A stretch of DNA of 32,870 bases, from the NCBI GenBank assembly GCA_040755995.1, contig JBFMAF010000017.1, forward strand, positions 1-32,870. The letters are read 5' to 3'. This document shows, in pieces, positions 6,122 through 32,870 of this stretch. A model generated the notes under the pieces. That model was not told the origin of the DNA. It saw nothing but the letters and a program-made list of their open reading frames with translations, and searched no databases. The position numbers and the translations under genes were made by a program. Numbering within the stretch: the first letter of the stretch is position 1; the number at the start of each line of letters is the position of its first letter. Origin of the DNA: Acidobacteriota bacterium. Its GTDB lineage: Bacteria; Acidobacteriota; CAIWXX01.

Positions 6122-6670
6122 ATGGATGTGCCGGGCGAGTCGGGCTTGAATCCTGAGGAGCCCGGGATGACGGTAGCGGAGCTGGAGCGGCACCATCCGA
6201 AGAGCTTCGGCTGGGCGCTCGCCTGCTGCCGCGGTGATCGCAGCGAGGCGGAGGAGGTCCTGCAGGTGGCTTACATGAAGATCCTCGACGGCTCGGCCCG
6301 ATTCAACGCCCGCTCGCAGTTCAAGACATGGCTCTTCGCGGTGATCCGGCTGACGGCACAGGAGCACCGGCGCCGGGCCTTCCTGCGCCGCCTCATCGAG
6401 GACCGCGCCCAGCGATGGCGTGATCAGGTCGAGCAGCCCGCGGTGCCGGCGATCGAGGCGGATTCCGAGAAGGTCGAGGCGCTCCGTCTTGCGCTGGGCG
6501 AGCTGTCCCGAAGGCAGCAAGAAGTGATCAACCTGGTTTTCTACCAGGACCTGTCCGTTGCTGAGGCGGCCGAGGTGATGAAGGTCTCCGTCGGCAGCGC
6601 TAGCAGGCATTATGAGCGGGGCAAGAAACGACTTCTCGTCGGGCTCGAGGCCCGTGGAGTGTGCAAGTGA
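6122..6670 (+). CDS. ECF RNA polymerase sigma factor
   Basis: 182 aa; region 2 AEEVLQ...FKTWLF; region 4 LSRRQQEVINLVFYQDLSVAEAAEVMKVSVGS. Confidence 0.92.
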   Translation: MDVPGESGLNPEEPGMTVAELERHHPKSFGWALACCRGDRSEAEEVLQVAYMKILDGSARFNARSQFKTWLFAVIRLTAQEHRRRAFLRRLIEDRAQRWRDQVEQPAVPAIEADSEKVEALRLALGELSRRQQEVINLVFYQDLSVAEAAEVMKVSVGSASRHYERGKKRLLVGLEARGVCK

Positions 6671-10600: not shown

Positions 10601-12489
10601 GTGATAGGTGTAGCCATATCCCACATGTTGTGCTTGCACCGGTATAGTTTGAAAGTGCCGAACGGCACGCCACGGCTGAGCTCGAGATCGCTCTCGATGC
10701 ACAAGCGGCAAGACTCCGGGTTGATCCGATGGAACTTGGTGCAGACATCCTGCCAGCCGGTTCCCACCAACACCCTTCCGTGAAGGTCAATGATGCCGAT
10801 ACCGACGTTGGTCAACTGGTAGAACTCATCCATCAGCCTCTGTATCTCCTCGGTGTCGACAATGTCGGAGAGTTCCAACGCGCCAATATCTCCCTCGGGG
10901 GACAGGATAGCATCGAGCTTGCGTCGAACTCGCTTCTCGCTTTCCCGCAACGCCTCCTCCGCACGCTTGCGCTCCGCAATATCCCAGGCGAGATCGGCGA
11001 GCATCCCAGTCGCGTTCACATCGTTCTGATCATAATCCGCCGGCTTGTTGCCCACACCGAGGATGGCCACTATCTTGTCACCGCGAAACACGGGCGTGAC
11101 CAGTTCCCGCACGACCGGCGCGTGACCTTTCGGTGTACCTTTGCGATGGGGCAGGGCGCCGTAATCGTTATGGATGACAGCTCGCCGTTCGCGAACGCAA
11201 TCGACCCAAACCCCCGCCTCGTCAATCGAATAGTGCCGTCCCTTGGCCTCTGCGGTACACATGCTTGCGAGGGTATTGGTTGACCACGCCTGGAGCGTTA
11301 GCGTCTTCTGGTCAGCATCCAGAAAATGGTAGAATCCGATGACGCTGCCCGTCAGCGCCTCCGCTTCATCCAGGGTGGCTTGGAGTAGTTCCTCCGATGA
11401 GTGCATGTTGGCGAACTGCATCAAGCGCAGACGCGCTTGCATGATTTGTTCTCCGCGTCTGCGCCCGGTGATGTCACGGGCAATGGCGACCAGGCAATTC
11501 TTCTTCTCCTGCTCGACGTACTTGACATTCACCTCGACAGGAAACGTGGTCCCGTCTTTGCGCCTCTGCTCACCCTCGAGAATTACGTATCGCTTCTCCC
11601 GAACTTCGTTCACATGTTTCTGCCAGGAAAGAGGATCGGACAAACCTGCTTCAACATTCATCACTCCCATGTTGAGAAGCTCTTCGGATTCATATCCCAG
11701 AATGCCGCATGCCTTGTCATTGACATCAAGAAAACGACCGGTCTCCGGGTCTACAACGAATATGGCGTCATTGGATTGGTTGATCAGATTCCGGAAGAAG
11801 ATCAACTCTTCGTGGGTGCTTTCACGGTCAACGATGTTCTTCAACAACCGTTCCACTTCCTGTGACGTCTGACTCGGTTTCAAGAACTCATCCGGTGGAA
11901 CATAATAGAGGTTCCTGCAAACCATATTGCCGTACACAACCAATGGGTGCGTATAGATTACGTCCCTGAGAATCTCCGGAGAGAAACGATTGCGGTTATA
12001 CTGGCAAATGGCCAGAGCATCGCTGGCAGGAAAGAAGTAGTTGAGCTTGGATTCGTATTCCATGAGCCGCTCAGCCCCCGGGTCTCCTCCCAGCATCCAC
12101 GTCATCTCGCCGGTAGCCCTGAGTGCGGAAAAGCCCGATGCCCGTGCTTGCTCGGTTGATTGCTCCAAGAAGGCAATCATCCATTCGGGATCAAAGTGAC
12201 CCTGCTTCAGGTAAGCATCTCGCTTATTGGCCATGACCAATGCACCCGATCGGATGACTGAATCCACATCGATCCCTTCGGTTGTCATGGCGCCCAATAC
12301 AGCAGTGGCAGTGTTGTCATCAGCGATGTAGATGCACTTTTCGCCGCGCTCAAGACCGATTCTCATGAAAGGGATGACAGCGGCGAATTGCTCCTCCCTC
12401 GTTTCGTAGATCAGGCAGAGATGGTCGTGAACTCTGAGTCGTTCAAGGGCCCCCAGGAGCCTCCCTCTATCGTCGGCTGGGCTCACCAT
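7660..12489 (-). pseudogene. Hybrid sensor histidine kinase MEDS-PAS-GAF-PocR-GAF-GAF-PAS-HisKA-HATPase-REC, interrupted by an in-frame TGA at 10342-10344
   Basis: ORFs 10342..12591 and 7660..10269 share a frame; the junction reads AVEE*RRAEQALQRLNRKL; GGAGG RBS before ATG 12489; AHDFNN H-box, FEPFFTTK, GTGLGL, receiver LTDVVMP. Confidence 0.85.
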
Positions 12490-12736
12490 GTCTGAAATCC
12501 TCCAAGTGCAGTGTCTTCTTCCTCGGAAGGGATTCGTGGCCGAATCCACTGTTTGAACGTTCGTTGATGCGTAACTCGTTGCTGCTCTCACAGTCCCGGC
12601 CGTCCTGGAGACTGTGAGGGCCAGTTTCCTCTAGCAGGCCAGCGGCGCTCATTGGTTCCCCCCCGAGGGTCAAGAGTCATATTAACCCCAATCCCGACGC
12701 TCCTCCAGGGTCTCCGGCAATTCTCTGATTGCGCGC

Positions 12737-12948: not shown

Positions 12949-14952
12949 ATGTCATCCATAGCTGCGCTGCGGGGAATGTTCGTGGCATTCGTGTTCGCAG
13001 GCCTGTCCGTTGTCTTCGACTCAGGTGAGGCCGCGGTATGGGAAGGACCTGACGCTGGCACCAGCCGATCGGAGGTGAAGCCAGTTTTTCACTCGAATCC
13101 AGCGGCCGCGACGAACCTGCTGGCCAACTCCGGTTTCGAAGAGGGAGACACGGGCGTGGCCGACTGGGCCCCGTGGCCGGTCGCTCCCGGTGTGGGCTAC
13201 AGGTGGGAGTCGACAGCGGCGTCCGGGCGGAGAAGCGTGTGTGTGACAAGCGAGACCTCCACCGCGTTTGGGATGTGGCGGCAGGTCGTCCCGATCGCCC
13301 CCGGCGTTGTCTACTCCCTGTCGGGCTTCGTGAAGACACAGGACGTGATCCCTGCCGGACGCTGCGGTCTGCAGGTTGTCTTTCGCGATGCCGCGAACGA
13401 CGTGGTCAAGATGGTCGATCTCCCGTCGCACATCGGCACGCGGTCGTTCGCCTGCGACTTCCCTCGAACGCTCATGGTGCGGGCGCCGAAAGGAGCGACC
13501 GCCGCCGAGGTCAACCTTCTTCTATTTGGCAAAGGAAGCGCCTGGTTCGATGACATCTTCTTCGGCCCTTCTCCGACGGGTAGCATTTCTGGATCCGTTA
13601 CAGGCGAAAACGGACCTCTCGCCGGCGCGCGCGTGATGATCTGGAACAGGCCCTGGGGCGCTCCGGTCGAAGCAATCACAGACAAGACAGGGCGATATGT
13701 CATCGATGATGTGCCCGTGGCCTCTCCGCGATACCTGCTCCTGGCGAGCAAGACCGGGTTCAAGACTCAGCCGATTGGAGGCATCGACGTCCGGGACGGG
13801 CGTGTCACGAAGATCAACTTCAAGCTTCGGCGCGGCAGCGATCCGGTGGATGACCTTCGGGTCAAGTTCGCGAGCATGGTGCGCGTCAGACCTATTCCTT
13901 CGCCGGACATTCCCGCCGATGCGATGATTCCGCTGGACGCGACGGGCTATCCCGAGTCGGTCCGCCCCTTCCTGATGCCTGATCGGTTCATCGAGTCCAA
14001 TCACCCCTCCATCGCTTCGCTGGCGAAAGAGATCCTCTCGATCGTGCCGGTTCAGGAGAGGTCACGCACTCGATCTGTGGCATGGGCCGTCTATTCGTGG
14101 ATCGTACACAACATCGAGCATGACGGTGTCTACCAGGGAGGAACGGCGCCAGGCCGGGTCATTACCGTGGAGGAGGACTTCAAGGATGTGACGAGTGGGA
14201 TATGGCAGACTGTCACGAATGAGGGCTGGTGTTGGGGGCGCAGCTTCTACGATTGGGCCTACCGGCCGTCGGAGACTCTGGAGGAAAGAGGCGTCATATG
14301 CGCGGAGCACGCATGGCTCGCCGCAGCCCTCCTCCGCCACCTCGGCATCCCCGCTCGCGCCGCGGTGGGCTACAACCAGCTCTGGGTGCAGGTCACTCCC
14401 GAGCGCGGCTACTGGGCGTACTTCAGCACGACCGAAGGGAGAGGTGCCTATCGTCGCGAAGGCATTCTCGGTGCAGGTTTCGGCACCCCTGCCTCACCCG
14501 CCTTCTACTCGGTGCTTTCGAGACCTCTGCTGCACGAGGACTGGAACTGGCGGCGCCCCGGCATGTGGCGGGAGATTCATCCCTTCTCGGAGGACTACGA
14601 GGATACTCCTGAGGGGCTGGCACGCGCCGTGTCGGACCTGGCGAAGTTCTCGACCACAGGCGAGGCACCCAGAGGCGACCCGCCGGACCAACCCCGCCCG
14701 TCATTCCTGATGCTCCACTATGCGGACGTCACGCTGAACCTCCTCAACGTCGGAGACCAGAGAAGCCTAGACGTTCGATTCCCCTTCGTCTCGGAATCCG
14801 CAAGCCACTCCTTGCTCGACGACCACGCATTCTGGACGAACCATCCCGAGTGTGTGCGGAGGACCTGGATCGAAGTCGTCCAGAACCAACCCGTCGAGGG
14901 GGTCGAGCGCTGGTTCCACATCGAGCTCGACATCACGTCTCTGGTTGACTGA
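12949..14952 (+). CDS. Secreted transglutaminase-like protein with N-terminal CBM4/9-like and carboxypeptidase-regulatory-like domains
   Basis: 667 aa; signal-like N-terminus; NLLANSGFEEG...WFDDI; GSISGSVT..PLAGARV..TDKTGRY; GVICAEHAWLAAALLRHLGIPAR; AGGAGG RBS. Confidence 0.8.
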   Translation: MSSIAALRGMFVAFVFAGLSVVFDSGEAAVWEGPDAGTSRSEVKPVFHSNPAAATNLLANSGFEEGDTGVADWAPWPVAPGVGYRWESTAASGRRSVCVTSETSTAFGMWRQVVPIAPGVVYSLSGFVKTQDVIPAGRCGLQVVFRDAANDVVKMVDLPSHIGTRSFACDFPRTLMVRAPKGATAAEVNLLLFGKGSAWFDDIFFGPSPTGSISGSVTGENGPLAGARVMIWNRPWGAPVEAITDKTGRYVIDDVPVASPRYLLLASKTGFKTQPIGGIDVRDGRVTKINFKLRRGSDPVDDLRVKFASMVRVRPIPSPDIPADAMIPLDATGYPESVRPFLMPDRFIESNHPSIASLAKEILSIVPVQERSRTRSVAWAVYSWIVHNIEHDGVYQGGTAPGRVITVEEDFKDVTSGIWQTVTNEGWCWGRSFYDWAYRPSETLEERGVICAEHAWLAAALLRHLGIPARAAVGYNQLWVQVTPERGYWAYFSTTEGRGAYRREGILGAGFGTPASPAFYSVLSRPLLHEDWNWRRPGMWREIHPFSEDYEDTPEGLARAVSDLAKFSTTGEAPRGDPPDQPRPSFLMLHYADVTLNLLNVGDQRSLDVRFPFVSESASHSLLDDHAFWTNHPECVRRTWIEVVQNQPVEGVERWFHIELDITSLVD

Positions 14953-18258: not shown

Positions 18259-21200
18259 ATGAAATGGAATTTGGGTATCAAGATGATTCTTGCGGGTTGT
18301 GCCCTGGCACTGTCCGGGCCGGGCGGCGCGGCCCGCGTCCGTCTGGACGCGGCGGCGCCTGCGGGGGTTTCAGGACAGGCTTCTCCGCGTCAGCAGATGG
18401 ACGCCCCGGCGAGACCTGCGGCTGTCACGGCCGACACCGGATTCGGCCGCATGCCGCTCTACTTCATCCCGAACGAGGGCCAGACTGACAACCGTGTGGC
18501 CTTCTATGTCCAGGGACGAGACAAGACGGTGTACTTCACGCCCGAGGGGCTGACATTCTCGCTCGCCCAGGCCGGTGATGTGAAGGAAGCGAGACCGCGG
18601 GCCGGCGCGGCGGATGGGCTCCGCGAAAGGTGGAACGTGAAGCTCGACTTTGTCGGAGCGAACGAGGGCACACGGCCCGAGGGCTTGGAGAAGTGCGGCG
18701 CGGTGGTCTCGTATTTCAAAGGTTCGAGGGAGCAGTGGCACACTGGGCTTGAGGCCTGCTCGAAGATCGCCTACGAAAACCTCTGGACCGGAATCGACGT
18801 CGTCTACAGCGGCACCGTGAACCGGATGAAGCACGAATTCATCGTACGCCCCGGCGCAGACCCGTCGAAGATCCGCCTGGCCTATCGCGGCGCGACGTCG
18901 GTCGCGCTGAACGGGGGCGGCCAGATCGAGGTGGCGACGCCCGCCGGCACCTTCACCGACGACACCCCCGAAGCGTGGCAGGACATCGGAGGTGAGAGGA
19001 GAGCCGTGGCAGTCGAATACGGGATCGATGGGACGGAGTATGGGTTCAAAGTCGGCGCGTATGATCCATCGTACCCGCTCGTACTCGACCCCGCCGTCCT
19101 GGTGTACTGCGGGTTCATCGGCGGCTCGGCTATCGACGTTCCGACAGGGATTGCCGTAGATTCAGCGGGCAATGCGTACGTCGCCGGATACACTGGCTCC
19201 ACCGAGACAAGCTTCCCGGTAACTGCGGGGCCCGATCTCGCTGCCAACGGGAGCAACGACGCTTTCGTGGCGAAGGTGAACTCGAGTGGCGCATCCCTGG
19301 TCTACTGCGGGTTCATCGGCGGCTCGGGCGGGGACTATGCCACCGGCATCGCAGTGGACTCCGCGGGAAACGCCTACGTTGCAGGCTATACCACCTCCGC
19401 CCAGGCAACCTTCCCGGTGACTGCCGGCCCGGACCTGACCTTCAACGGAGGTGACGACGCCTTTGTGGCGAAGGTGAACTCGGGCGGGACGTCCCTGGCG
19501 TATTGCGGATACATCGGCGGCACTGGTTGGGACCATGCGGAAGCGATCGGCTTGGATGCGACGGGAAACGCCTACGTCTGCGGCACCGTCGATTCGCCAA
19601 GCTTCCCGGTGACTGTGGGTCCCGACCTCTCGCACAATGGAAACGACGACGTTTTCGTCGCGAAGGTGAGCTCCACCGGCTCCTCCCTGGCCTATTGCGG
19701 CTACATCGGCGGCTCGGGCGGAGACTATGGTCTCGGGATCGCCGTAAGCCCCGGTGGAAATGCATACATCCTGGGGTACACACTCTCAAGTGAGACGACC
19801 TTCCCGGAAGCCGTGGGACCCGACCTCTCATACAACGGGAATGGCGACGCCTTCGTCGCCAAGGTCAGCACCAGTGGCGCCGCACTCTCCTACTGCGGGT
19901 ACATCGGCGGCTCGGACAACGATCGCGACTCTGGCAACTGGGGGATCGCCGTCGACTCCGCCGGAAGCGCCTATGTTGTGGGGGAGACCCTTTCAGCCGA
20001 GTCGAGCTTCCCCGTGACAGTCGGGCCGGATCTCAGCGCCAACGGTGGCGCGGATGCCTTTGTGGCGAAAGTGAGCCCCAGTGGTTCATCTCTGGTCTAC
20101 TGCGGATTCATCGGAGGCTCCGGCATTGAACGAGGCGGCGGAATCGCCGTCGACTCCGCCGGTAACGCTCTCGTCACAGGGGTTACAGACTCAACGGAAG
20201 CAACCTTTCCCGTCATCGACGGCCCTGATCTGACTAGCAACGGAAGCTATGACGCCTTCGTGGCGAAGCTCAACGCCGAGGGCACCTCGTTTGAGTACTG
20301 CGGGTACGTGGGTGGCTCCAGCGGTGAAGGCGGTCTGGGAATTGCCGTGGACTCCACCGGGAGCGCCTACGTTGTGGGCTCCACAAGCTCAACCGAGGCT
20401 ACCTTTCCCGTGACTGTCGGCCCCGACCTGACGAGCAACGGCAGTTCAGACGGATTCGTGGCCAAGATATCTCCGTGCCTGATGATCGTGACGCAGCCAC
20501 TGAGCCAGACTGTCGCATCCGGCGGCAGCGCGACGCTCAGCGTGGGTGCGACAGGCGCGGCGCCGCTCAGCTACCAGTGGTACAAGGGGATGAGCGGGGA
20601 CACGTCGCAGCCTCAGGGCGGCGCAACATCGGCGGGCTTCACGACACCGGCACTGACCGTGACGACAAACTACTGGGTGCGCGTCAGCAACGCCTGCGGA
20701 AGCGCCGACAGCGAGACTGCGACCATCACCGTCGGGGGTGGCTGCACGGCGCCCACCATCACTACGCAGCCATCCGGGCAGACGGTCGCATCGGGAGGCA
20801 ACGCGACGCTCGCCGTGATCGCCACGGGCTCCGCCCCCCTCGGCTACCAGTGGTACCAGGGCGCCAAGGGCAACCTGACCCAGCCTGTGGCCGGAGCCGT
20901 CTTCGACATTCTTACGACGCCGGCACTCTACTCGACAACGAGCTACTGGGTACGCGTCGCCAACAGTTGCGGCAGCGCCGACAGCAATGCGGCTGTGATC
21001 ACCGTGCCTGGGAGCGGTCCCTACATCGCCCGGATCAAGAGCAAGACAGCGAAGCCGGGAAGCACCGCCAAGATCATCGGCAGCGGGTTCTCCGGCACCA
21101 AGACGAAGAACGTCGTACGCTTCGGTACACGAAAGGCGTCTGTGACGAAGGCAAAGGCAACACAGCTCACGGTCACGATTCCGTCCCGCAAGCTCCACGC

Positions 21201-21273
21201 GGGCCAGGTCGTGGACGTGACCGTAACTGTCAACGGTGCCGTCAGCAACGCCGTGAGCTTCCAAATCAAGTAG
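18259..21273 (+). CDS. Secreted/cell-surface SBBP beta-propeller protein with two Ig-like domains and a C-terminal IPT/TIG domain
   Basis: 1004 aa; signal peptide; N-domain (PLYFIPNEGQ...FIVRPGADPSKIRLAY...YPLVLDP); 7 repeats YCG[FY][IV]GG..IAVDS.G.AYV.G.T..D.FVAK; 2x TQP..QTV..YQWY..YWVRV; basic TIG tail. Confidence 0.9.
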   Translation: MKWNLGIKMILAGCALALSGPGGAARVRLDAAAPAGVSGQASPRQQMDAPARPAAVTADTGFGRMPLYFIPNEGQTDNRVAFYVQGRDKTVYFTPEGLTFSLAQAGDVKEARPRAGAADGLRERWNVKLDFVGANEGTRPEGLEKCGAVVSYFKGSREQWHTGLEACSKIAYENLWTGIDVVYSGTVNRMKHEFIVRPGADPSKIRLAYRGATSVALNGGGQIEVATPAGTFTDDTPEAWQDIGGERRAVAVEYGIDGTEYGFKVGAYDPSYPLVLDPAVLVYCGFIGGSAIDVPTGIAVDSAGNAYVAGYTGSTETSFPVTAGPDLAANGSNDAFVAKVNSSGASLVYCGFIGGSGGDYATGIAVDSAGNAYVAGYTTSAQATFPVTAGPDLTFNGGDDAFVAKVNSGGTSLAYCGYIGGTGWDHAEAIGLDATGNAYVCGTVDSPSFPVTVGPDLSHNGNDDVFVAKVSSTGSSLAYCGYIGGSGGDYGLGIAVSPGGNAYILGYTLSSETTFPEAVGPDLSYNGNGDAFVAKVSTSGAALSYCGYIGGSDNDRDSGNWGIAVDSAGSAYVVGETLSAESSFPVTVGPDLSANGGADAFVAKVSPSGSSLVYCGFIGGSGIERGGGIAVDSAGNALVTGVTDSTEATFPVIDGPDLTSNGSYDAFVAKLNAEGTSFEYCGYVGGSSGEGGLGIAVDSTGSAYVVGSTSSTEATFPVTVGPDLTSNGSSDGFVAKISPCLMIVTQPLSQTVASGGSATLSVGATGAAPLSYQWYKGMSGDTSQPQGGATSAGFTTPALTVTTNYWVRVSNACGSADSETATITVGGGCTAPTITTQPSGQTVASGGNATLAVIATGSAPLGYQWYQGAKGNLTQPVAGAVFDILTTPALYSTTSYWVRVANSCGSADSNAAVITVPGSGPYIARIKSKTAKPGSTAKIIGSGFSGTKTKNVVRFGTRKASVTKAKATQLTVTIPSRKLHAGQVVDVTVTVNGAVSNAVSFQIK

Positions 21274-22652: not shown

Positions 22653-23006
22653 ATGGAACGCTATCTGCCCATCGCCATATTCTTGGTCATCGTCCTACTC
22701 TTCCCGGTTGCCGGCTTCGTGTTCTCATGGCTGCTTCGCCCATCCAAGTACAACAAGGCCAAGCTCAGCGCCTACGAATGCGGGGTGGAGCCGTTCAGCG
22801 ACGCGCGCGAGCGGTACTCGATCCACTACTACATCATCGCGATGCTCTTCGTCATTTTCGACATAGAGACGATTTTCCTTTTTCCCTGGGCGGTCCTCTA
22901 CAAACAGCTCGCCCTTTTCGGCTTCATCGAGATGGCCTTGTTCATCCTGATCCTGATCGTCGGCTACTTCTACGCGTGGAAGAAGGGCGCGCTGGAGTGG
23001 GCATAG
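22653..23006 (+). CDS. nuoA: Complex I subunit A
   Basis: KLSAYECG, FVIFDIETIFLFPWA, KKGALEW. Confidence 0.96.
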   Translation: MERYLPIAIFLVIVLLFPVAGFVFSWLLRPSKYNKAKLSAYECGVEPFSDARERYSIHYYIIAMLFVIFDIETIFLFPWAVLYKQLALFGFIEMALFILILIVGYFYAWKKGALEWA

Positions 23007-23020
23007 GAGACTGCTGAACC

Positions 23021-23509
23021 ATGGGACTGATTGAGAACAGGCTCGAGCCGGGCCTCATCGTTACCAGCGTCGACACGGTCTTCAACTGGGCACGAAAATC
23101 TTCACTCTGGCCCGTCACCTTCGGCCTGGCCTGCTGCGCAATCGAGATGATGGCGGCCGGAGCCGCCCGTTACGACATGGACCGGTTCGGGTCGGGCATC
23201 TTCCGGCCCAGCCCGCGCCAGGCCGACCTGATGATCGTGGCGGGCACCGTGACGCTCAAGATGGCCCCGGCCGTCAAGCGGGTATACGACCAGATGCCCG
23301 AGCCTAAGTGGGTGATCGCCATGGGGAACTGCGCCAACGCAGGCGGCCCCTTCCCGACCTACCACACGCTCCAAGGGGTCGACAAGATCGTCCCCGTCGA
23401 CGTGTACATCCCGGGCTGCCCGCCGCGCCCCGAGGCGCTTCTGTACGGCCTCATGAGGCTCCAGGACAAGATCGCCCAGCAGACCATCGCCAAGAAGAAG
23501 TCAGCCTAA
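23021..23509 (+). CDS. nuoB: Complex I subunit B
   Basis: [29 protein letters not shown]. Confidence 0.97.
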
Positions 23510-23526: not shown

Positions 23527-24141
23527 GTGAGCGACGAAACCCCCAAAGAGCCTGTGAGCCCGCCGGCCGGCGCCGGAGCAGCCCCGAAACCGGCAACCAC
23601 GCCAAAGCCCGCTGCCGCGGCCAAGCCCGCGGCTCCACCGCCTCCCCCCGAGGAACCCCCCGACGACCTCAAGACCATCCGTGACAACCTCCGGTCGAAG
23701 TTCAAGGATGCGATGATCGAGGAGAAGGTGTTCCGCGCGGAGCTCACGGCGCGATTCGAGAGGGACAAGATAGTCGAGGTCTGCCGGTATCTCCGCGATG
23801 AGCACAAGTTCAACTTCCTTTCGGACCTCTGCGGCGCGCACTATCCGACCCGCGAGAAACCGTTCGAAGTCGTCTATCACCTCTACTCGATTCCCAACAG
23901 GAACTACATACGTCTGAAGATCTGGCTCGCCGACGGCGAGCACGCTCCGACTGTGAGCGGCCTCTGGAGTACGGCGAACTGGCACGAGCGCGAGGCGTAC
24001 GATATGTTCGGAATCACGTTCGACGGCCACCCGGATCTCAGGCGTATTCTGCTGCCGGAGGACTGGAAAGGGTTCCCCCTGCGCAAGGACTACCCGCTCG
24101 AAGGCCGCGGCGATTATCCGATTCCGGCGCGCGAAGACTGA
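23527..24141 (+). CDS. nuoC: Complex I subunit C with Pro/Ala-rich N-terminal extension
   Basis: AGGAG + GTG 23527; ANWHEREAYDMFGITFDGHPDLRRILL, FPLRKDYP. Confidence 0.95.
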   Translation: MSDETPKEPVSPPAGAGAAPKPATTPKPAAAAKPAAPPPPPEEPPDDLKTIRDNLRSKFKDAMIEEKVFRAELTARFERDKIVEVCRYLRDEHKFNFLSDLCGAHYPTREKPFEVVYHLYSIPNRNYIRLKIWLADGEHAPTVSGLWSTANWHEREAYDMFGITFDGHPDLRRILLPEDWKGFPLRKDYPLEGRGDYPIPARED

Positions 24142-24144
24142 GCT

Positions 24145-25260
24145 ATGGAAGCACTGACCACTTCTTTCGACACCAGGGAAATCGTCGTCAACATGGGACC
24201 TCAACACCCCAGCACCCACGGGGTGCTCCGGGTGATTCTCCGCCTGGACGGCGAGATGGTCGTGGATGCCGACTGCGTAATCGGGTACCTGCACCGCGGC
24301 TGCGAGAAGCTCGGCGAGAGCCGAATGTACCACCAGATGATCCCGACCACGGATCGGCTCGACTACATCGCCGCCATCTCGAACAACCTCTGCTACTGTG
24401 AGACCGTCGAGAAGCTATACGGAATCAAGGCGCCTCCGCGCGCGCAGTACGTGCGGGTGATACTGGCCGAGCTCACCCGGATCAGCTCGCACCTTTTGTG
24501 GCTCGCCACTCACGCGCTCGACATCGGCGCAATGACCGTGTTCATTTACTGTTTCCGCGAGCGCGAGCACATCCTCGATATCTTCGAGGGCTACTGCGGC
24601 GCCCGGCTGACGAACTCGGCGCTGCGAGTCGGCGGGCTGCCGAACGACATCCAGCCGGACTTCAAGCAGAAGGTCAAGGAGTTCTGCGACATTCTGCCCG
24701 CGAGGATCGAGGAGTACGAGGGGCTTCTGACGAAGAACCGGATCTGGATGAACCGGACGATCGGCGTCGGGATTCTGAAGCCTCAGGACGCGATCGACCT
24801 GGGCGTGAGCGGTCCCACGCTGCGCGGGTCGGGTGTCGACTGGGACGTGCGAAAGTCGAACCCGTACGCGTGCTACGACGAGTTCGAGTTCGACATCCCG
24901 CTGGGCAAGACCGGCGACACGTACGACCGGTACCTGTGCCGGATCGAGGAGATGCGGCAGAGCCGCCGGATCATCCTGCAAGCGCTGGAGAGGATGCCGG
25001 AAGGCGAAATCCGCGCGAAGCTGGCGCGGACGGCCAAGCCGCCTGCCGGCGAGGTTTATCACACGATCGAGGCCCCCAAGGGGCAGATCGGGTGGTACCT
25101 GGTATCGGACGGTTCGCAGAAGGCGTACCGCTGGCGCGTGCGCGCGCCGTCGTTCGTGAACCTGCAGGCTCTGGCAAAGATGGTCAAGGGGCAGCTCGTG
25201 GCGGATGTGGTGGCGGTGATCGGCAGCATTGATATCGTGCTCGGCGAAGTGGACAGATGA
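24145..25260 (+). CDS. nuoD: Complex I subunit D
   Basis: [25 protein letters not shown], terminal DIVLGEVDR. Confidence 0.97.
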
Positions 25261-25420: not shown

Positions 25421-26437
25421 ATGGGCTTGTTAGCCGTTGAAGCCCTGGTCAAGATCGTGCTTGTGCTTCTGGTGCTGGTGCTTCTTGTGGCGTACATGAC
25501 GTACGCCGAGCGGAAGATCGTGGGATTCATGCAGGTGCGACTTGGCCCGATGCGTGTGGGTCCCTGGGGACTGCTGCAACCGATTGCTGACGTGGTGAAG
25601 CTCCTGATCAAGGAGGACATCACGCCCACCATGGTGGACAAGTGGGTGTACTGGATTGCGCCGGTGCTGGCGGTGGTGCCGGCGTTCCTGGTGTTCTCGG
25701 TCATCCCCTGGGGCGACTCGGTCGCCATCTTCGGGCGCCAGATCGGCCAGTACGTGGCCGACATCAACGTGGCGCTGCTTTTCATCCTTGCCGTGATGTC
25801 GATGGGCATATACGGGATCATCCTCGGCGGCTATTCATCCAACAGCAAGTACCCGTTGCTCGGCGGCCTACGTTCGGCGGCTCAGATGGTGAGCTACGAG
25901 GTACCGCGCGGGTTCGCGATCATCGGCGTGATTCTGATAGCACAGTCGATGAGCCTGGTGGACATTGTGAAGGCGCAGGAGCACAGCCGGATCTGGTACT
26001 TCGTTCCGCAGCTTGTGGGATTCGTGATCTATTTCATATCGAGTGTGGCCGAATGCAACCGGTCGCCGTTCGACCTGCCGGAGGCCGAGTCGGAGCTGGT
26101 TGGCGGGTTCCACACGGAATATAGCGGTATCAAGTTCGCATTCTTCTTCCTGGCGGAATACACCAACATGATCGCCGTCTCAGCCGTCGCCGCCTGCCTG
26201 TATTTGGGCGGGTGGCTGCCGCCGTTCCCAAACTGGCTGCCATGGCTCAAGGTGGTGCCCGGAATATTCTGGTTCCTGCTCAAGGTCGCCCTGCTCCTTT
26301 ATCTTTTCCTCTGGTTCCGCGCGACCTTCCCGCGCTATCGGTACGACCAGCTCATGAGGTTGAACTGGAAGTGGATGATTCCTGTGTCGATCATCAACGC
26401 GATGGTGACGGGGCTCGCACTGATTCTATGGAGCTAG
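25421..26437 (+). CDS. nuoH: Complex I subunit H
   Basis: GGAGG + ATG 25421; ERKIVGFMQVRLGP, GLLQPIADVVKL, PFDLPEAESELVGG, PRYRYDQLM. Confidence 0.97.
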   Translation: MGLLAVEALVKIVLVLLVLVLLVAYMTYAERKIVGFMQVRLGPMRVGPWGLLQPIADVVKLLIKEDITPTMVDKWVYWIAPVLAVVPAFLVFSVIPWGDSVAIFGRQIGQYVADINVALLFILAVMSMGIYGIILGGYSSNSKYPLLGGLRSAAQMVSYEVPRGFAIIGVILIAQSMSLVDIVKAQEHSRIWYFVPQLVGFVIYFISSVAECNRSPFDLPEAESELVGGFHTEYSGIKFAFFFLAEYTNMIAVSAVAACLYLGGWLPPFPNWLPWLKVVPGIFWFLLKVALLLYLFLWFRATFPRYRYDQLMRLNWKWMIPVSIINAMVTGLALILWS

Positions 26438-26442
26438 ACACA

Positions 26443-26880
26443 ATGACAGTAAATGAGTTCTTCCGAAAGATATTCTTTGTCGACCTGCTCAAGGGCATGT
26501 CGATCACACAACACTTCTTCAACTCTCCCAAGGTCACACTGCAGTATCCGAAGCAGAGGTGGAATCCGCCCGAGCGGTTTCGGGGCGTTCTGCGGCTGGA
26601 GAAGGACAAGTGCAACGCGTGCGAGCTGTGCGTGAAGGAGTGCCCGGAGGGGATCATCAAGGTCGAGTCGATCCGTGGCGATGACAAGAAGAAGCACCCG
26701 GTGACATTCACGATCGATCTCAAGCGCTGCACGTTCTGCGGGTTCTGCGCCGAGGCCTGTCCGAGCGAGGCGTTGAACGTTTCGAAGGACTACGAGCTGT
26801 CCTTCTACGACCGCGACGACATCCGGCTGGACATGGAGAGGCTGCACAAAGGGGTCGAAATCACCCCGTATGAGAAGTAG
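26443..26880 (+). CDS. nuoI: Complex I subunit I (2x[4Fe-4S])
   Basis: TLQYP, RFRG, CNACELCVKECP, CTFCGFCAEACP. Confidence 0.95.
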   Translation: MTVNEFFRKIFFVDLLKGMSITQHFFNSPKVTLQYPKQRWNPPERFRGVLRLEKDKCNACELCVKECPEGIIKVESIRGDDKKKHPVTFTIDLKRCTFCGFCAEACPSEALNVSKDYELSFYDRDDIRLDMERLHKGVEITPYEK

Positions 26881-26951: not shown

Positions 26952-26972
26952 CTCTTCGTGGAAGTGAGGATG

Positions 26973-27464
26973 ATGGAAGCGTACGCGTTTTACCCGCTTG
27001 CCCTCTTGACGATTGTCGCGGCGCTGGTGGTCGTGAGCCGCAAGAATCCAGTCCACTCGGTGCTGGCGCTCGTGATCTGTTTCATCGGTGTGGCGGCCAT
27101 CTACATCGTGCTCCACGCCGAGTTTCTCGCCGCGGTGCAGATTCTCGTCTACGCGGGCGGCATAGTGGTGCTCTATCTGTTCGTCGTCATGTTGGTGAGT
27201 CTCAGGCAGGGTGAGACGGCCAAGACTGCGCGGCACCGCCTCCCGGCGATCATCCTCGCGGTGATGCTCTTCGCGGAGCTGATCGTGGTCTTCGTGCGCG
27301 CGACGCCGTCGGCCGCGCAGCCGTCGCCTGTGATGACCGGCAGCGCGACCCAGGCCCTCGGCCGCGTGTTGCTGGTCGAGTACTTGCTGCCGTTCGAAAT
27401 CGCGTCGCTGCTGCTTCTGGTCGCCATGATCGGTGCAATCGTCCTCGCCAAGAAGAGGGTGTGA
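26973..27464 (+). CDS. nuoJ: Complex I subunit J
   Basis: [54 protein letters not shown]; start 26970 or 26973. Confidence 0.95.
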
Positions 27465-27465
27465 G

Positions 27466-27768
27466 ATGGTACCTCTGAATCACTATCTGCTTCTCGGAGC
27501 GGCGCTCTTCTTCATCGGTGTTCTCGGGGTCCTCACGCGCCGCAACATCCTGATCATCTTCATGTCCATCGAGTTGATCCTTAACGGCGTGAACATCACG
27601 CTGGTGGCCTTCTCACGGCACCTGGCCAATTTCTCGGGGCAGATTTTTGCGCTGTTCGTAATTACCGTGGCGGTGGCCGAGGCCGCCGTGGGGCTGGGCA
27701 TTCTGATCGCCCTGTTCCGCAACAAGGACACGATCTTCATCGACGATGTGGATATTCTGAAGGGCTAG
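27466..27768 (+). CDS. nuoK: Complex I subunit K
   Basis: [25 protein letters not shown]. Confidence 0.96.
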
Positions 27769-27769
27769 C

Positions 27770-29809
27770 ATGGAATACTTCTGGCTCATCCCGCTTTTCC
27801 CGCTCCTGGGGGCTTTCCTGAACGGCGTCTTCGGCGTCGCCTTCTTCCCGAAGAAACTCGCTCATGCCATCGCCTGCGGCACGGTGTTCATCTCGTTCGT
27901 GCTGGCGGTTGTCGCGTTCATGGGGCTGCTCGGCCTTCCCTCCGGCGAGCGTCACGTCGAGCACGTGGTCTACAGCTGGCTCCCGGGGACCCCCGCGCAC
28001 ACCAGCGACGGCATGCTCGCCAACTTCAAGATCGACCTCTCGTTCTACCTCGACGAGCTCTCCGGGATCATGACCCTGGTCGTGACCGGGGTCGGTTTCT
28101 TGATCCACCTGTACTCGGTCGGATACATGCATCACGAGGCCGGATACGTCCGGTACTTCACCTATATGAACCTGTTCACCTTCTCGATGCTGACACTGGT
28201 GCTGGGCGCTTCGTTCCCGCTGCTCTTCGTCGGCTGGGAAGGCGTCGGGCTGTGTTCCTACCTGCTCATCGGCTACTGGTACGAGAAGAAGAGCGCCGCG
28301 GACGCCGGCAAGAAGGCCTTCGTTGTGAACCGCATCGGAGACGCCGGGTTCCTCACGGGGATGATGTTCATCTTCGCGACGCTGGGGACACTGCACATCC
28401 CGACCGTGATGAAGATCGTTGCCACTGACTCCGAACTCGCAGCCACGATCCCCGCGACCGTCATCTGCCTGTTTCTTTTTGTCGGCGCCGTGGGCAAGTC
28501 AGCGCAGATTCCGTTGTATGTCTGGCTGCCGGACGCCATGGAAGGCCCGACACCTGTCTCGGCCCTGATCCACGCCGCGACGATGGTCACGGCCGGCGTG
28601 TACATGGTGGCGCGATGCGGGGCGCTCTACAGCTTGTCCCCGTTCGCCATGGCTGTAGTGGCTTGGACCGGCGTGGCGACGGCGCTCGTCAGCGCCTCCA
28701 TCGGCCTCGTCCAGAACGACATCAAGCGCGTGCTCGCGTATTCCACCGTCAGCCAGCTCGGCTACATGTTCGTCGGCTGTGGTGTGGGCGCATTCGCCGC
28801 CGGGATCTTCCATCTGTATACGCACGCCTTCTTCAAGGCCCTGCTCTTCCTCGGCTCGGGCAGCGTCATCCACGCGCTTTCGGGCGAGCAGGACATGCGA
28901 AAAATGGGCGCCCTGAAGTCGCATCTGCCGATCACGTTCAAGACGTTCTTCGTCGGGACCCTTGCCATCGCCGGCTTCCCGTTCCTTTCGGGATTCTTCA
29001 GCAAGGACATGATCCTGGCCAAGGCGTTCGAAAACAACAGGTACGTCTGGGCCGTCGCCGTGTGCGTGGCCGGCATGACCAGCTTCTACATGTTCCGGCT
29101 GCTCTTCATGACGTTCTACGGAAAGAGCCGTGTGGACGAGCACGTGGCGCACCACATCCACGAGTCGCCCTGGACGATGACGCTGCCGCTCAGCCTGCTG
29201 GCGATCGGCGCGGCGCTGGCCGGCTACGTCGGGCTGCCGCCGCCGCTCGCGCACACGATCCATGCGGCGCCCGAGAGAGTGGCAGCATTCCTGGCGCCGG
29301 CGATTTACGCCGGGCACCTGCCCGAACACGAAGCGGCCGCCAGCGCATCCCTCGAGATGGCGCTCATGGGAGCGTCGATACTGGCGATGGCGATCGGTTT
29401 CTACATCGCATTTACATTCTACATCCGGCGCCCCGAGCTTCCGGCCCAGCTCGCTGCGCGCGCCAGCGCCTTCTATCGACTTCTCCTGAACAAGTACTAC
29501 GTGGATGAGGCGTACGAATTCGCTTTCGTCGACGGGACGAAGGGGCTGGGCAACGGCCTCGCCAAGTTCGACAACACCGTGATCGACGACTTCTTCGTCA
29601 ACGGGGCCAGCCGCAACACGATCCGGACGAGCGACGCGTCGATCGCGTTCGACATGGGTGTTGTGGACTGGCTGGTCAACGCCGTGGCCCGCATGCTGCA
29701 GTGGTTGAGCCGGATCTACCGCCGGGTGCAGACTGGAATCACACCGGACTACGCCACCGCCATGATATTCGGCATTCTGATCCTGGTCAGTCTGAGCCTG
29801 TTCTTGTGA
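27770..29809 (+). CDS. nuoL: Complex I subunit L with extended amphipathic helix
   Basis: 679 aa; GWEGVGLCSYLLIG, GKSAQIPLYVWLPDAMEGPTPVSALIHAATMV, HAFFKALLF. Confidence 0.97.
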   Translation: MEYFWLIPLFPLLGAFLNGVFGVAFFPKKLAHAIACGTVFISFVLAVVAFMGLLGLPSGERHVEHVVYSWLPGTPAHTSDGMLANFKIDLSFYLDELSGIMTLVVTGVGFLIHLYSVGYMHHEAGYVRYFTYMNLFTFSMLTLVLGASFPLLFVGWEGVGLCSYLLIGYWYEKKSAADAGKKAFVVNRIGDAGFLTGMMFIFATLGTLHIPTVMKIVATDSELAATIPATVICLFLFVGAVGKSAQIPLYVWLPDAMEGPTPVSALIHAATMVTAGVYMVARCGALYSLSPFAMAVVAWTGVATALVSASIGLVQNDIKRVLAYSTVSQLGYMFVGCGVGAFAAGIFHLYTHAFFKALLFLGSGSVIHALSGEQDMRKMGALKSHLPITFKTFFVGTLAIAGFPFLSGFFSKDMILAKAFENNRYVWAVAVCVAGMTSFYMFRLLFMTFYGKSRVDEHVAHHIHESPWTMTLPLSLLAIGAALAGYVGLPPPLAHTIHAAPERVAAFLAPAIYAGHLPEHEAAASASLEMALMGASILAMAIGFYIAFTFYIRRPELPAQLAARASAFYRLLLNKYYVDEAYEFAFVDGTKGLGNGLAKFDNTVIDDFFVNGASRNTIRTSDASIAFDMGVVDWLVNAVARMLQWLSRIYRRVQTGITPDYATAMIFGILILVSLSLFL

Positions 29810-29918
29810 TCCGCAGATTACGCAGATGGATCAGACCACGCAGAAGGACATCAGAGACCCTCGCACCCACCCAACCACCGGGTGCGGCCAGCACAGAAAT
29901 TCGGAGGATTGATTCCTT

Positions 29919-31556
29919 ATGAACAACGCCGCCGGTTACCCCATCCTTTCACTGATCACATACATACCGATTGCCGGCGCCCTGGTTCTTCTGTTCGTCA
30001 ACAAGAAGAGCGAGGGCTTCATCAAGTGGTTCACGAACATCGTGGCGTTCGCGGACATGGTGGTCTCGTTCTTCCTGCTCCCGAAGTTCAACACCGGCAC
30101 GGCGGACATGCAGTTCATCGAGCGTGTGCCGTGGATTGACAAGATCGGCGCTCAGTACTTCTTCGGCATCGACGGAATCAGCCTCCTGCTCGTGCTCCTT
30201 ACTACCGTCCTCGGCTTCTTGTCCATCCTCTCATCGTGGACCGCGATCACCGAGCGCGTGAAGGAGTACTACATCTTCATGCTGGTGCTCCAGACGGGGA
30301 TGCTGGGTGTCTTCGTCTCGCTCGACTTCTTCCTCTTCTACGTCTTCTGGGAAGTGATGCTCGTTCCGATGTACTTCCTGATCGGTGTCTGGGGAGGCCC
30401 GAGGAAGCTGTACGCGGCGATCAAGTTCTTCCTGTACACGCTGTTCGGCAGCGTCCTGATGCTGATCGGCATTCTGACCGTCTACTTCCACTACTACGCA
30501 AAAACGGGCGTCTACACTTTCGACGTGCTGAAGCTGACCGAATTTCTGATCCAGAATCCGCTCGCCCACACTCTCGGGATCTGGATCTTCCTCGCATTCT
30601 GGGTCGCGTTCGCGATCAAGGTGCCGATGTTCCCGTTCCACACGTGGTTGCCGGATGCTCACGTCGAGGCCCCCACGGCCGGCTCGGTCATCCTGGCCGG
30701 CGTTCTGCTGAAGATGGGGACGTACGGATTCGTGAGATTCTCTCTTCCGATGTTCCCCGGGCCGACCAAGGAGATGCTGCCGTGGGTGATCGGCCTCTCG
30801 CTCATTGCCATCGTTTACGGCGCCCTGGTCGCGATGATGCAGAAGGACTGGAAGAAGCTGGTCGCATACAGCTCGGTCTCGCACCTCGGCTTCTGCACCC
30901 TCGGCATCTTCGCCCTTAATCCCGTCGGAATCGAAGGCGGCATGCTCCAGATGATCAACCACGGAATCTCCACTGGCGCGCTGTTCTTGATCGTCGGCAT
31001 AATCTACGAGCGACGCCACACCAGGGACCTCTCCGAGTTCGGCGGACTGTCCAAGGTCATGCCAGTTTACGCGGCGGTGTTCGCGATCATGACCATGTCG
31101 TCGATCGGGCTGCCGGGGCTCAATGGATTCATTGGAGAGTTCTTCATCCTGGTAGGTGCCTTCGAGGTCAAGTGGTGGTGGGCGCTGATCGCCACATCGG
31201 GAATTGTGCTGGGAGCCGCATACATGCTCTGGGCCTACCAGCGCATCATGTTCGGCAAGATCGAGAACGAGAAGAACAAGAACCTCACCGACCTGAACTT
31301 GCGCGAGTTCGCCACCTTCGTGCCGCTGATCATCTTCGCATTCTGGATCGGCCTGTATCCGAAGCCGTTTATTCGCATCATCGAGAAGCCGATCGAGAAG
31401 ATCGTCGAACAGGTTCAGCCAGGCTACTTCGCCCGGCAGCAGAAGCCGATCGAGCCGAGGGAGTCAGGGCCTGCACCGGCGCACTCAGCCGCGGAGCCGG
31501 CGGCATCGCACGAGGGAGTCGAGCCTGCGGCGCACGCAGGAGCCGGCAATGAGTAG
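29919..31556 (+). CDS. nuoM: Complex I subunit M
   Basis: 545 aa; FYVFWEVML, KVPMFPFHTWLPDAHVEAP, LLKMGTYG, AYSSVSH. Confidence 0.97.
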   Translation: MNNAAGYPILSLITYIPIAGALVLLFVNKKSEGFIKWFTNIVAFADMVVSFFLLPKFNTGTADMQFIERVPWIDKIGAQYFFGIDGISLLLVLLTTVLGFLSILSSWTAITERVKEYYIFMLVLQTGMLGVFVSLDFFLFYVFWEVMLVPMYFLIGVWGGPRKLYAAIKFFLYTLFGSVLMLIGILTVYFHYYAKTGVYTFDVLKLTEFLIQNPLAHTLGIWIFLAFWVAFAIKVPMFPFHTWLPDAHVEAPTAGSVILAGVLLKMGTYGFVRFSLPMFPGPTKEMLPWVIGLSLIAIVYGALVAMMQKDWKKLVAYSSVSHLGFCTLGIFALNPVGIEGGMLQMINHGISTGALFLIVGIIYERRHTRDLSEFGGLSKVMPVYAAVFAIMTMSSIGLPGLNGFIGEFFILVGAFEVKWWWALIATSGIVLGAAYMLWAYQRIMFGKIENEKNKNLTDLNLREFATFVPLIIFAFWIGLYPKPFIRIIEKPIEKIVEQVQPGYFARQQKPIEPRESGPAPAHSAAEPAASHEGVEPAAHAGAGNE

Positions 31557-32870
31557 CCCGCTCTTCTCCTGGGCGGACGTCGCCAGAATCGCCCCCGAGC
31601 TCTGGATCGCGGGCATGGCGATGGTGCTGCTCGTCGTGGACATCTTCGTGCCGCGCGGCAAGAAGATGTGGCTCGGCGTGATCTCGCTGCTGATATGCAT
31701 CGGCGGGATCGGCCTCGTCGGCACGGCGGGCACGGGCGGCCTCATCTTCTCGAACTTGTTCAGCACTGATGCGTATTCGTCCTTCTTCAAGATGATCTTC
31801 CTGGTTGCGACACTCCTCACGATCCTGATGTCGATACGCTTCCTGGAGATCGAAGAGGCCCACCTCGGGGAGTACTACTTCTTGCTCCTGGCGGCTGTTG
31901 CCGGCATGATGTTCATGGCGGCAGCCGTCGACCTGATCGCGATCTACATCAGTCTCGAGACCATGGCCATTGCCTGCTACGTGCTCACCGGCTTCTTCAA
32001 GCGCGATGCGAAGAGCAACGAAGCGGCGATGAAGTACTTCCTGCTCGGCGCCTTCGCCTCCGGGATACTGCTTTATGGCATGGCCCTTGTCTACGGCCTC
32101 ACCGGTTCGACCAATCTTTACCAGATCGCGGAGAAGCTCCAGGCTGGCGGCCAGGATCACGCCGTGTTGATCCTGGGGATGCTGTTGATCCTCTCAGGGT
32201 TGGGGTTCAAGGTGGCGGCCGTGCCGTTTCACATGTGGGCACCGGACATCTACCAGGGAGCGCCGACCCCGGTCACGGGGTTCCTCTCGGTGGGCCCCAA
32301 GGCGGCCTACTTCTCCGTCTTCCTGCGGATCTGCCTCGTCGGGCTGATGCCGCTCGCGACCGACTGGAAGATGATGCTCGCCTGGATCTCGTTTTTCACG
32401 ATGGCGGTGGGCAATATCGGGGCTATCGTGCAGACCAACGTGAAGCGGCTGCTTGCCTACTCATCCATCGCGCACGTGGGCTATCTGCTCATGGGTCTTC
32501 TGGCTGGCGGCGACGATTTCGGAATTCCGGGGGTACTGCTCTACCTGTTCGTCTACGTCTTCATGAACCTGGGCGCGTTCGGCATCGTTATCTACCTGCG
32601 CAGCACGGGCCAGGTTGGAGATGAGATCGAGCACTTCCAGGGCCTTGCTCAGAAGAACCCCTGGGCGGCCGGCCTGATGATCGTCTTCCTGCTCTCGCTC
32701 ACGGGCATTCCGCCGACGGCGGGCTTCGTCGGGAAGTACTTTTTGTTCGCCGCCGCGGTGCAGGAAGGCTGGATGCTGCTGGCAGTGGCCGGCGTGGTCT
32801 TCTCGGCCGTGTCGCTGTACTACTACTTCAAGATCGCAGTGGCGATGTACATGGGCGAGCCCACCGAGCG
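31549..32870 (+). CDS. nuoN: Complex I subunit N (partial, runs off the window)
   Basis: Manual translation from ATG 31549 (not in the ORF track): APELW...GEYY...SLE...SNEAAMKYFLLGAFASG...FKVAAVPFHMWAPDIYQGAP...KRLLAYSSIAHVGY...GIPPTAGFVGKY. Confidence 0.95.
   Translation, partial: MSSPLFSWADVARIAPELWIAGMAMVLLVVDIFVPRGKKMWLGVISLLICIGGIGLVGTAGTGGLIFSNLFSTDAYSSFFKMIFLVATLLTILMSIRFLEIEEAHLGEYYFLLLAAVAGMMFMAAAVDLIAIYISLETMAIACYVLTGFFKRDAKSNEAAMKYFLLGAFASGILLYGMALVYGLTGSTNLYQIAEKLQAGGQDHAVLILGMLLILSGLGFKVAAVPFHMWAPDIYQGAPTPVTGFLSVGPKAAYFSVFLRICLVGLMPLATDWKMMLAWISFFTMAVGNIGAIVQTNVKRLLAYSSIAHVGYLLMGLLAGGDDFGIPGVLLYLFVYVFMNLGAFGIVIYLRSTGQVGDEIEHFQGLAQKNPWAAGLMIVFLLSLTGIPPTAGFVGKYFLFAAAVQEGWMLLAVAGVVFSAVSLYYYFKIAVAMYMGEPTE

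What the first reader, a model, noticed from the sequence alone, without database searches (positions are those of the whole stretch)
29492..29737. NuoL carries the '2M complex I' helix extension, but the operon shows only one nuoM
Seen: the lateral-helix segment from KYY to QTG is 82 aa and contains the motif FD..V[IV]D..VN twice (FDNTVIDDFFVNG at 29567, FDMGVVDWLVNA at 29648), 26-27 residues apart. Gene order is nuoL-nuoM-nuoN with no room for a second M. Known: ordinary NuoL has one such motif and roughly 55 aa over this span (from memory), and ~26-aa insertions in this helix mark complex I variants with an extra NuoM antiporter subunit. Inference: the complex may be built as L-M-M-N using two copies of one NuoM or a NuoM encoded elsewhere, pumping an extra ion or driving steeper reverse electron transfer. 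Alternatively it is a relic after loss of the second M.
Basis: partly seen in the sequence, partly recalled or inferred. Interest (0 to 1): 0.8.

Follow-up and report, generated by a model that had tools for sequence, protein, structure and literature searches.

The report
One nuoM gene, two docking sites
The strap helix of this complex I subunit carries two copies of the motif that grips the NuoM proton pump in solved structures, yet the operon has only one nuoM gene, so the enzyme likely uses that pump twice; this mismatch is common among its relatives and was already noted in print for another lineage.

Summary
Observation confirmed. The NuoL span is 82 aa, against 56 in the genome's other NuoL. 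It is a 26-residue tandem repeat, modelled as one continuous helix. The operon (nuoABCDHIJKLMN) has one nuoM, and none follows nuoN on the adjoining contig.

The layout is common: at least 33 of 60 sampled relatives have the long helix, and only 1 shows two adjacent nuoM genes. It is in print for Manganitrophaceae (PMC9040806), and this scan met it before on other DNA.

A relic is unlikely. Both NuoM-anchor aspartates are kept in 83 of 83 long tails. The two motifs stay alike beside one nuoM and diverge in true 2M operons. Three near-complete genomes have a long NuoL and only one nuoM. Most partner NuoMs form one clade, and nuoM sits further from nuoL in 17 of 19 untied within-genome pairs.

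Best reading (0.55, inferred): L-M-M-N built from one nuoM gene, with helix length setting the copy number. Main rival (0.25): three pumps with the helix end docked further along. No complex model or stoichiometry could be obtained.

The parts
22653..23006 (+). nuoA, first gene of an 11-gene complex I operon without nuoEFG
23021..23509 (+). nuoB
   Evidence: TIGR01957 over cut-off
23527..24141 (+). nuoC
   Evidence: TIGR01961 over cut-off
24145..25260 (+). nuoD
   Evidence: TIGR01962 over cut-off
25421..26437 (+). nuoH
26443..26880 (+). nuoI
   Evidence: TIGR01971 over cut-off
26970..27464 (+). nuoJ
   Evidence: best models below their cut-offs; position and similarity
27466..27768 (+). nuoK
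27770..29809 (+). nuoL, 679 aa, with lengthened lateral (transverse) helix
29492..29737 (+). KYY..QTG span of the lateral helix, 82 aa; modelled as one helix over residues 576-654 (pLDDT about 70-82)
29567..29647 (+). repeat unit 1 (F600-A626) with D601 and D606; predicted docking site for one NuoM
   Evidence: function by motif spacing to Paracoccus D648
29648..29725 (+). repeat unit 2 (from F627) with D628, D633 and N637; D628 aligns to Paracoccus Nqo12 D648, the NuoM anchor
29741..29803 (+). terminal transmembrane helix (TM16, residues 658-678) after the conserved QTG..Y motif
29810..29918 (+). 109-base nuoL-nuoM spacer with a ribosome-binding-like GGAGG before nuoM (the C10 operon has a 5-base spacer)
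29919..31556 (+). the single nuoM (545 aa), in a NuoM clade tied to long-helix NuoL; keeps E145, K234, H241, K265, Y317, E407
31549..32870 (+). nuoN, cut by the contig end; it ends on contig C40 (127-base overlap)

Best explanation
NuoL carries a 26-residue tandem repeat that doubles the aspartate motif known to anchor the lateral helix to NuoM, and the complex is likely built as L-M-M-N from two copies of the single nuoM product. Shown by sequence: the repeat, its conservation, one nuoM in the operon, and an unchanged QTG..Y/TM16 end. Inferred: the helix is a ruler with one docking unit per pump. The KYYVD unit would sit on L, D601 and D628 each on the TM7-His/TM10-Tyr pair of one NuoM, and Q654 with TM16 on N as usual. 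NuoM would stack on itself (TM12 Glu against the next TM5 Glu) until the helix is filled. Also inferred: nuoM is translated more often than its neighbours from its own start site, and a fourth pump would move a fifth proton per quinone, or let the proton gradient drive low-potential reduction. The operon has no NADH module of its own.
For: (1) Solved MBH, MBS and complex I have a helix length that matches the number of antiporter subunits (PMC7684303 passages). The long span here (81-82) equals that of all 10 true-2M tails scored, from two lineages. (2) D628 aligns to Paracoccus D648, which coordinates NuoM H239/Y315 (PMC9802314 passages). D601, D606, D628, D633 and N637 are kept in 83 of 83 long tails without a second nuoM, and in 28 of 28 in the phylum-wide sample alone. 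NuoM His is kept in 80/80 and Tyr in 79/80. (3) The two motifs resemble each other beside one nuoM (median BLOSUM score 32, n=83) and have diverged in true 2M operons with two different Ms (median 7; n=10 of 11, one not parsed). (4) The end of the helix is as in short forms (Q 81/83, G 83/83, Y 83/83), and AlphaFold2 gives one unbroken helix over 576-654. (5) G045 has only three antiporter-family genes (long L, M, N). G044 and G022 have these plus an Mrp-like pair, so no second nuoM was found there. (6) In G038 one nuoM hit serves a long-L operon and a span-55 operon that lacks nuoM, so this NuoM likely fits a normal-length strap. (7) 73 NuoMs of long-L loci plus one orphan form a clade (SH-like 99). 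They diverge more slowly relative to L and N in 7 of 8 genome pairs. (8) The nuoL-nuoM spacer is longer in the long-L locus in 17 of 19 untied within-genome pairs (21 compared); K-L shows 9 of 16 and M-N 7 of 11.
Against: No stoichiometry, structure or expression data exist for any member, as far as the searches show. NuoN also keeps the His/Tyr pair (66/66 beside long L), so the second aspartate could dock on N. Predicted ribosome-binding strength does not differ between groups (p 0.48-0.59). Seven long-L partners lie outside the special NuoM clade, so its residues are not required. The window's own motif-similarity score is only 11, because of the extra residue. All group contrasts rest on a few old lineages (two for true 2M), so their p-values overstate. 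A single-chain model predicts a straight helix almost by default. NuoM shows no NuoL-like Arg in TM6 to offset a Glu-Glu M-M interface (position 175 is Leu 96%). An unchecked earlier scan note (e1-7114659) reports three extra units with one M in an archaeon.
Confidence: 0.55

Rival explanations
1. The complex has the usual three pumps. The second aspartate docks on NuoN, and the rest of the helix with TM16 runs about one subunit further, to brace NuoK/J/A/H or an unknown partner, or the extra unit bows out along the membrane. The repeat would be a stabilising brace, not a pump counter.
For: NuoN keeps the His/Tyr pair that could take an aspartate. Eight NuoN positions differ between long-L and short-L operons. 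The gene count gives three pumps. Mutating the anchor affects stability, not pumping stoichiometry, in Paracoccus (PMC9802314). An unchecked note reports three extra units with one M.
Against: The NuoN pair is nearly as conserved beside short L (60/64, 61/64), so it does not discriminate. QTG..Y and TM16 are unchanged. The length equals that of true 2M tails. In three solved families helix length tracks pump number. It does not explain the longer nuoL-nuoM spacer or the like-for-like motifs.
Confidence: 0.25
2. The fourth pump is real but comes from another gene: in this genome the nuoM of the C10 operon, giving a mixed L-M-M'-N complex.
For: The genome has a second nuoM (55% identical). 26 of 30 genomes with a long L, the own genome included, also have a short-L locus. 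Five sampled relatives have a long L + M pair with no nuoK or nuoN beside it, which must combine with subunits made elsewhere. Operons lacking nuoM, with a distant lone nuoM, show that supply in trans occurs.
Against: G044 (4 contigs, 99% complete), G022 (9 contigs, 95%) and G045 (96%) show one nuoM only. The two motifs stay alike, unlike in complexes with two different Ms.
Confidence: 0.12
3. The repeat is a functionless relic left after loss of a second nuoM.
For: PMC9040806 offers evolutionary transition as one reading. True 2M operons exist in the same phylum (G032 family).
Against: Five residues are invariant in 83 of 83 tails, and the span is 81-83 in 29 of 30 sampled long tails. The layout is spread over many families. 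No true-2M NuoM falls inside the clade of the window's NuoM.
Confidence: 0.08

Closest known systems
Complex_I_1 and Complex_I_2 of 'Ca. Manganitrophaceae' (Yu et al. 2022, PMC9040806; passages and section 10 read, Fig. S2 not seen)
   Same: Canonical gene content with a NuoL carrying the 26-residue helix insertion: the same mismatch, already in print.
   Different: Different phylum. The paper leaves the meaning open and, in the parts read, does not propose two copies of one NuoM, a dedicated NuoM clade or wide spread. The window's operon also lacks nuoEFG.
2M complex I (Chadwick et al. 2018, ISME J 12:2668; paper not held, known only through PMC9040806, PMC7419157 and PMC11636273)
   Same: Same insertion length and position (span 81 against 82), with the first aspartate of each motif kept.
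   Different: 2M operons encode two different nuoM genes and their two motifs have diverged. Here there is one gene and the motifs stay alike across relatives. The window's NuoM does not group with either M of the sampled 2M operons.
Canonical complex I NuoL/Nqo12 (E. coli 3rko, Thermus 4he8, Paracoccus 8qby, cyanobacterial NdhF 6hum)
   Same: Same fold and core residues. One D-x-x-x-[VI]-D-type anchor that binds NuoM.
   Different: One anchor only; short tails span 52-59. No solved NuoL with the repeat was seen among the sequences shown.
MBH / MBS / complex I series (PMC7684303, passages)
   Same: Lateral helix length scales with pump number, the principle used here.
   Different: There each pump has its own gene.

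Membership tests
Complex I (NDH-1), 11-subunit core | genes nuoA, B, C, D, H, I, J, K, L, M, N | tested here: met
   A and J best models fall below their narrow cut-offs but match in order
Complex I (NDH-1), 14-subunit NADH type | nuoEFG in the operon | tested here: not met
   absent from the window; nuoE is in the C10 operon and nuoFG on C28
2M complex I | about 26-residue insertion in the NuoL lateral helix | tested here: met
2M complex I | two nuoM genes in the gene cluster | tested here: not met
   one nuoM; none after nuoN on C40
2M complex I | four antiporter subunits in the assembled enzyme | not testable with these tools
2M complex I | fifth proton per turnover (proposed in the literature) | not testable with these tools
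   needs biochemistry
Long-helix NuoL with canonical gene content (Manganitrophaceae type) | insertion present with a single nuoM | tested here: met
   common ancestry with the Manganitrophaceae genes was not tested
Green complex I (two MrpD-like subunits replace NuoL) | no canonical NuoL | tested here: not met
   P0001 scores over the TIGR01974 and NF005141 cut-offs

The most novel reading that the evidence does not exclude
A widespread class of complex I hides a fourth proton pump from gene counts. One self-stacking NuoM is used twice, and the number of 26-residue repeats in the NuoL helix acts as a ruler for pump number. A cell with a long and a short NuoL could then build five- and four-proton versions, in some genomes from the same nuoM.
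Probability: 0.5. Interest if true: 0.8.

Novelty: new variant of a known kind. Interest (0 to 1): 0.55.

Why it matters
If true, four-pump complex I is far more common than counts of nuoM genes suggest: about half of the sampled genomes of this phylum, against 1 in 60 by gene count. Energy budgets inferred from genomes would be off, and the helix repeat would be a simple handle for testing whether pumps can be added as modules and change the H+/2e- ratio, a standing question in complex I mechanism. If false, it is an ordinary, widespread brace variant already noted in print.

Tried and rejected
Chadwick 2018 could not be read, so whether it already discusses long-L/one-M clusters is unknown. 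Sequencing runs: no RNA holder listed. A promoter/terminator scan gave chance levels and nothing in the nuoL-nuoM spacer. Predicted Shine-Dalgarno strength did not separate groups. DNA-level similarity between the repeats gave no sign of a fresh duplication in the window (31 of 60 bases). A regex measure of span was unreliable and was replaced by alignment columns. An IQ-TREE run did not finish; the trees are FastTree only, with no test of monophyly. The NuoL-core tree mixes long and short forms and puts the window's NuoL next to its own short paralogue at weak support (82), so it says little on the order of events. 'NuoM becomes NuoL-like on its docking face' gave only a hint: TM3 +12.8 towards L against +1.5 towards N, while other helices shifted towards both. 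No coordinates were at hand to map it, so it is not counted as support. The C26 antiporter genes belong to a hydrogenase-type cluster (about 30% identity) and were rejected as the fourth pump.

Full report
Observation. The window is a whole contig (C17) of a 7.7-Mb genome. From 22653 it encodes nuoA B C D H I J K L M N, without nuoEFG. The genome's second nuo operon, on C10, has a 628-aa NuoL with a span of 56 and one motif. The window stops inside nuoN, but its last 127 bases open contig C40, where nuoN ends and no nuo gene follows. A Pfam PF00361 search finds nine antiporter-family genes in the genome: three on C17, three on C10 and three in a hydrogenase-type cluster on C26. The phylum is inferred to be Acidobacteriota from the named relatives.

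Size and spread. I used two sets. The first is 80 loci found with the window's tail, the best 80 of 537 confirmed and so biased towards close relatives. The second is the NuoL/NuoM loci of 60 relatives drawn by the tool, 2 from the same family and 58 from the same phylum; not every cut locus was fetched. Over 160 tails the span is 52-59 (71) or 81-92 (89), never 60-80 (one cut tail left out, one of the 89 a misaligned fragment). The internal repeat offset is 26 in 72 of 88 long tails. In the second set 29 relatives have a long NuoL, and four more show it by the ungapped length of a tail at a contig end. That makes at least 33 of 60, of which one (G032) has two adjacent nuoM genes. Of 66 long-L, one-M loci with a complete nuoN, 58 have at least 2 kb in view behind it with no further nuoM. 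G025 is unpublished. It counts as one genome in these tallies and in the trees, tail counts and spacer pairs, and it was left out of the alignments used for folding.

What the repeat contains. phmmer aligns D628 to Paracoccus Nqo12 D648, and D601 matches it by motif spacing. PMC9802314 (passages) describes D648 coordinating H239 and Y315 of NuoM, with a stabilising role. D601, D606, D628, D633 and N637 are present in 83 of 83 long tails without a second nuoM, the window included, and in 28 of 28 in the unbiased set. The partner His and Tyr of NuoM are kept in 80/80 and 79/80. Q654 lies 26 residues after D628, and QTG..Y is as conserved as in short tails. AlphaFold2 on a 73-row alignment gives one helix over 576-654 (pLDDT about 70-82), then TM16; a lone chain cannot show docking. 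PMC7684303 (passages) states that helix length matches pump number in MBH, MBS and complex I.

Contrast with true 2M operons. Four Nitrospiraceae loci, G032 and six loci of its family were examined. Five of those six show two nuoM, and one is cut after the first. Ten of the 11 tails parsed, and all have span 81. Their two motifs have diverged (median similarity 7), against 32 for the 83 one-M tails. This is expected if both motifs bind the same protein in one-M systems. Only two lineages stand behind the 2M figure, and the window itself scores 11 because of its extra residue.

Is there another source for a fourth pump? In this genome the C10 nuoM could serve. G045 (96% complete), however, has only three antiporter genes, and G044 (99%, 4 contigs) and G022 (95%, 9 contigs) have L, M, N plus an Mrp-like pair. 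G038 has one nuoM hit for two operons, one with a long L and one with a span-55 L and no nuoM. Five sampled genomes carry a lone long-L + M pair apart from a short-L operon.

The partner NuoM. In a FastTree of 154 NuoM, 74 rows form a clade (SH-like 99): 73 from long-L loci and one lone nuoM. The window's NuoM lies in it, no true-2M NuoM does, and seven long-L partners fall outside. Lone nuoM genes of G053 and G021 also join it; G003 and G021 show only short NuoL. The NuoL-core tree does not separate long from short. NuoM diverges less relative to L and N in the long-L locus in 7 of 8 genome pairs. The nuoL-nuoM spacer has a median of 28 against 8 bases (n=21, 37). It is longer in the long-L locus in 17 of 19 untied pairs within genomes, while other junctions show 9 of 16 and 7 of 11. 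Start sites were picked by script, and one pair (G008) is doubtful. Predicted ribosome-binding strength does not differ. Kin are not independent, so these are patterns, not tests.

Mechanism. The most economical reading is a ruler: one docking unit per pump, so four units mean L-M-M-N, with the one nuoM used twice (0.55). The main rival is three pumps with the second aspartate on NuoN, which keeps a His/Tyr pair, and the helix end docked further on (0.25). A second M from the other operon (0.12) and a relic (0.08) are less likely. The extra proton and the direction of electron flow are inferred from the literature on 2M enzymes and were not tested. No complex model could be obtained.

What is known. 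PMC9040806 (passages and section 10; Fig. S2 not seen) reports the insertion in NuoL of canonical-content clusters of Manganitrophaceae and leaves it open. Chadwick 2018 is not held and is known only through citing papers (PMC9040806, PMC7419157, PMC11636273; passages). Seven searches listed no paper showing a structure, or two copies of one NuoM; most subscription papers are not covered. PMC11794437 (passages) describes a related helix-to-NdhD salt bridge. No solved relative with the repeat was seen. The scan's earlier notes list the same mismatch in other genomes eight times, which are leads and not support.

Verdict. The feature is real, conserved and widespread, and the mismatch is already described once in print. 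New variant of a known kind; interest 0.55.

Noticed in passing
L146/L203 (G038), L151 (G003), L168 (G023), L169 (G005), L171 (G021); lone nuoM at L192-L196: nuo operons running nuoL straight into nuoN with no nuoM, while nuoM lies elsewhere: alone in G003, G005, G021 and G023, in the other operon in G038. All five NuoL have span 55.
   Followed up: partly
L114, L115, L117, L121, L131, L077, L080, L084: Stand-alone long-nuoL + nuoM pairs with no other nuo gene beside them; in the five sampled genomes the main operon has a short NuoL. A possible add-on module.
   Followed up: partly
window 27770-29400 and L001 6460-8346: The window's NuoL core is closest to its own short paralogue (62%), and long/short paralogues are sisters in G038 too; this may reflect recombination that spares the tail.
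   Followed up: no
L093, L097, L101, L106, L185 second nuoM: The second NuoM of true 2M operons lacks the TM7 lysine (Ile or Leu instead), and the first Nitrospiraceae NuoM lacks a TM11 histidine.
   Followed up: no
L189 (G016), L190 (G039): Clusters ordered J K L-like L-like M N A B C D E, resembling the green complex I layout.
   Followed up: no
L086, L087, L090, L092, L094, L095, L100, L102, L107, L109: Loci, mostly Bacteroidota/Ignavibacteria, with a 1.4-2 kb stretch between nuoM and nuoN that matches no nuo gene.
   Followed up: no
L038, L048, L065, L103, L121: A few long tails have a further 9-11 residue insert before or in the first motif (span 90-92).
   Followed up: no
L002 (G000:C26 165000-182000): Hydrogenase-type cluster with three antiporter-like genes, a formate-dehydrogenase-like gene and maturation-protease-like genes (read from the translations).
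   Followed up: no
window 18259-21273; 2068-5001; 7660-12591; 6122-6670; 12949-14952: Unrelated neighbours by Pfam: DUF7948/SBBP/Ig surface protein, propeller-GGDEF protein, GAF-PAS histidine kinase and MEDS-PAS-GAF-PocR sensor, ECF-type sigma factor, transglutaminase-like protein.
   Followed up: partly
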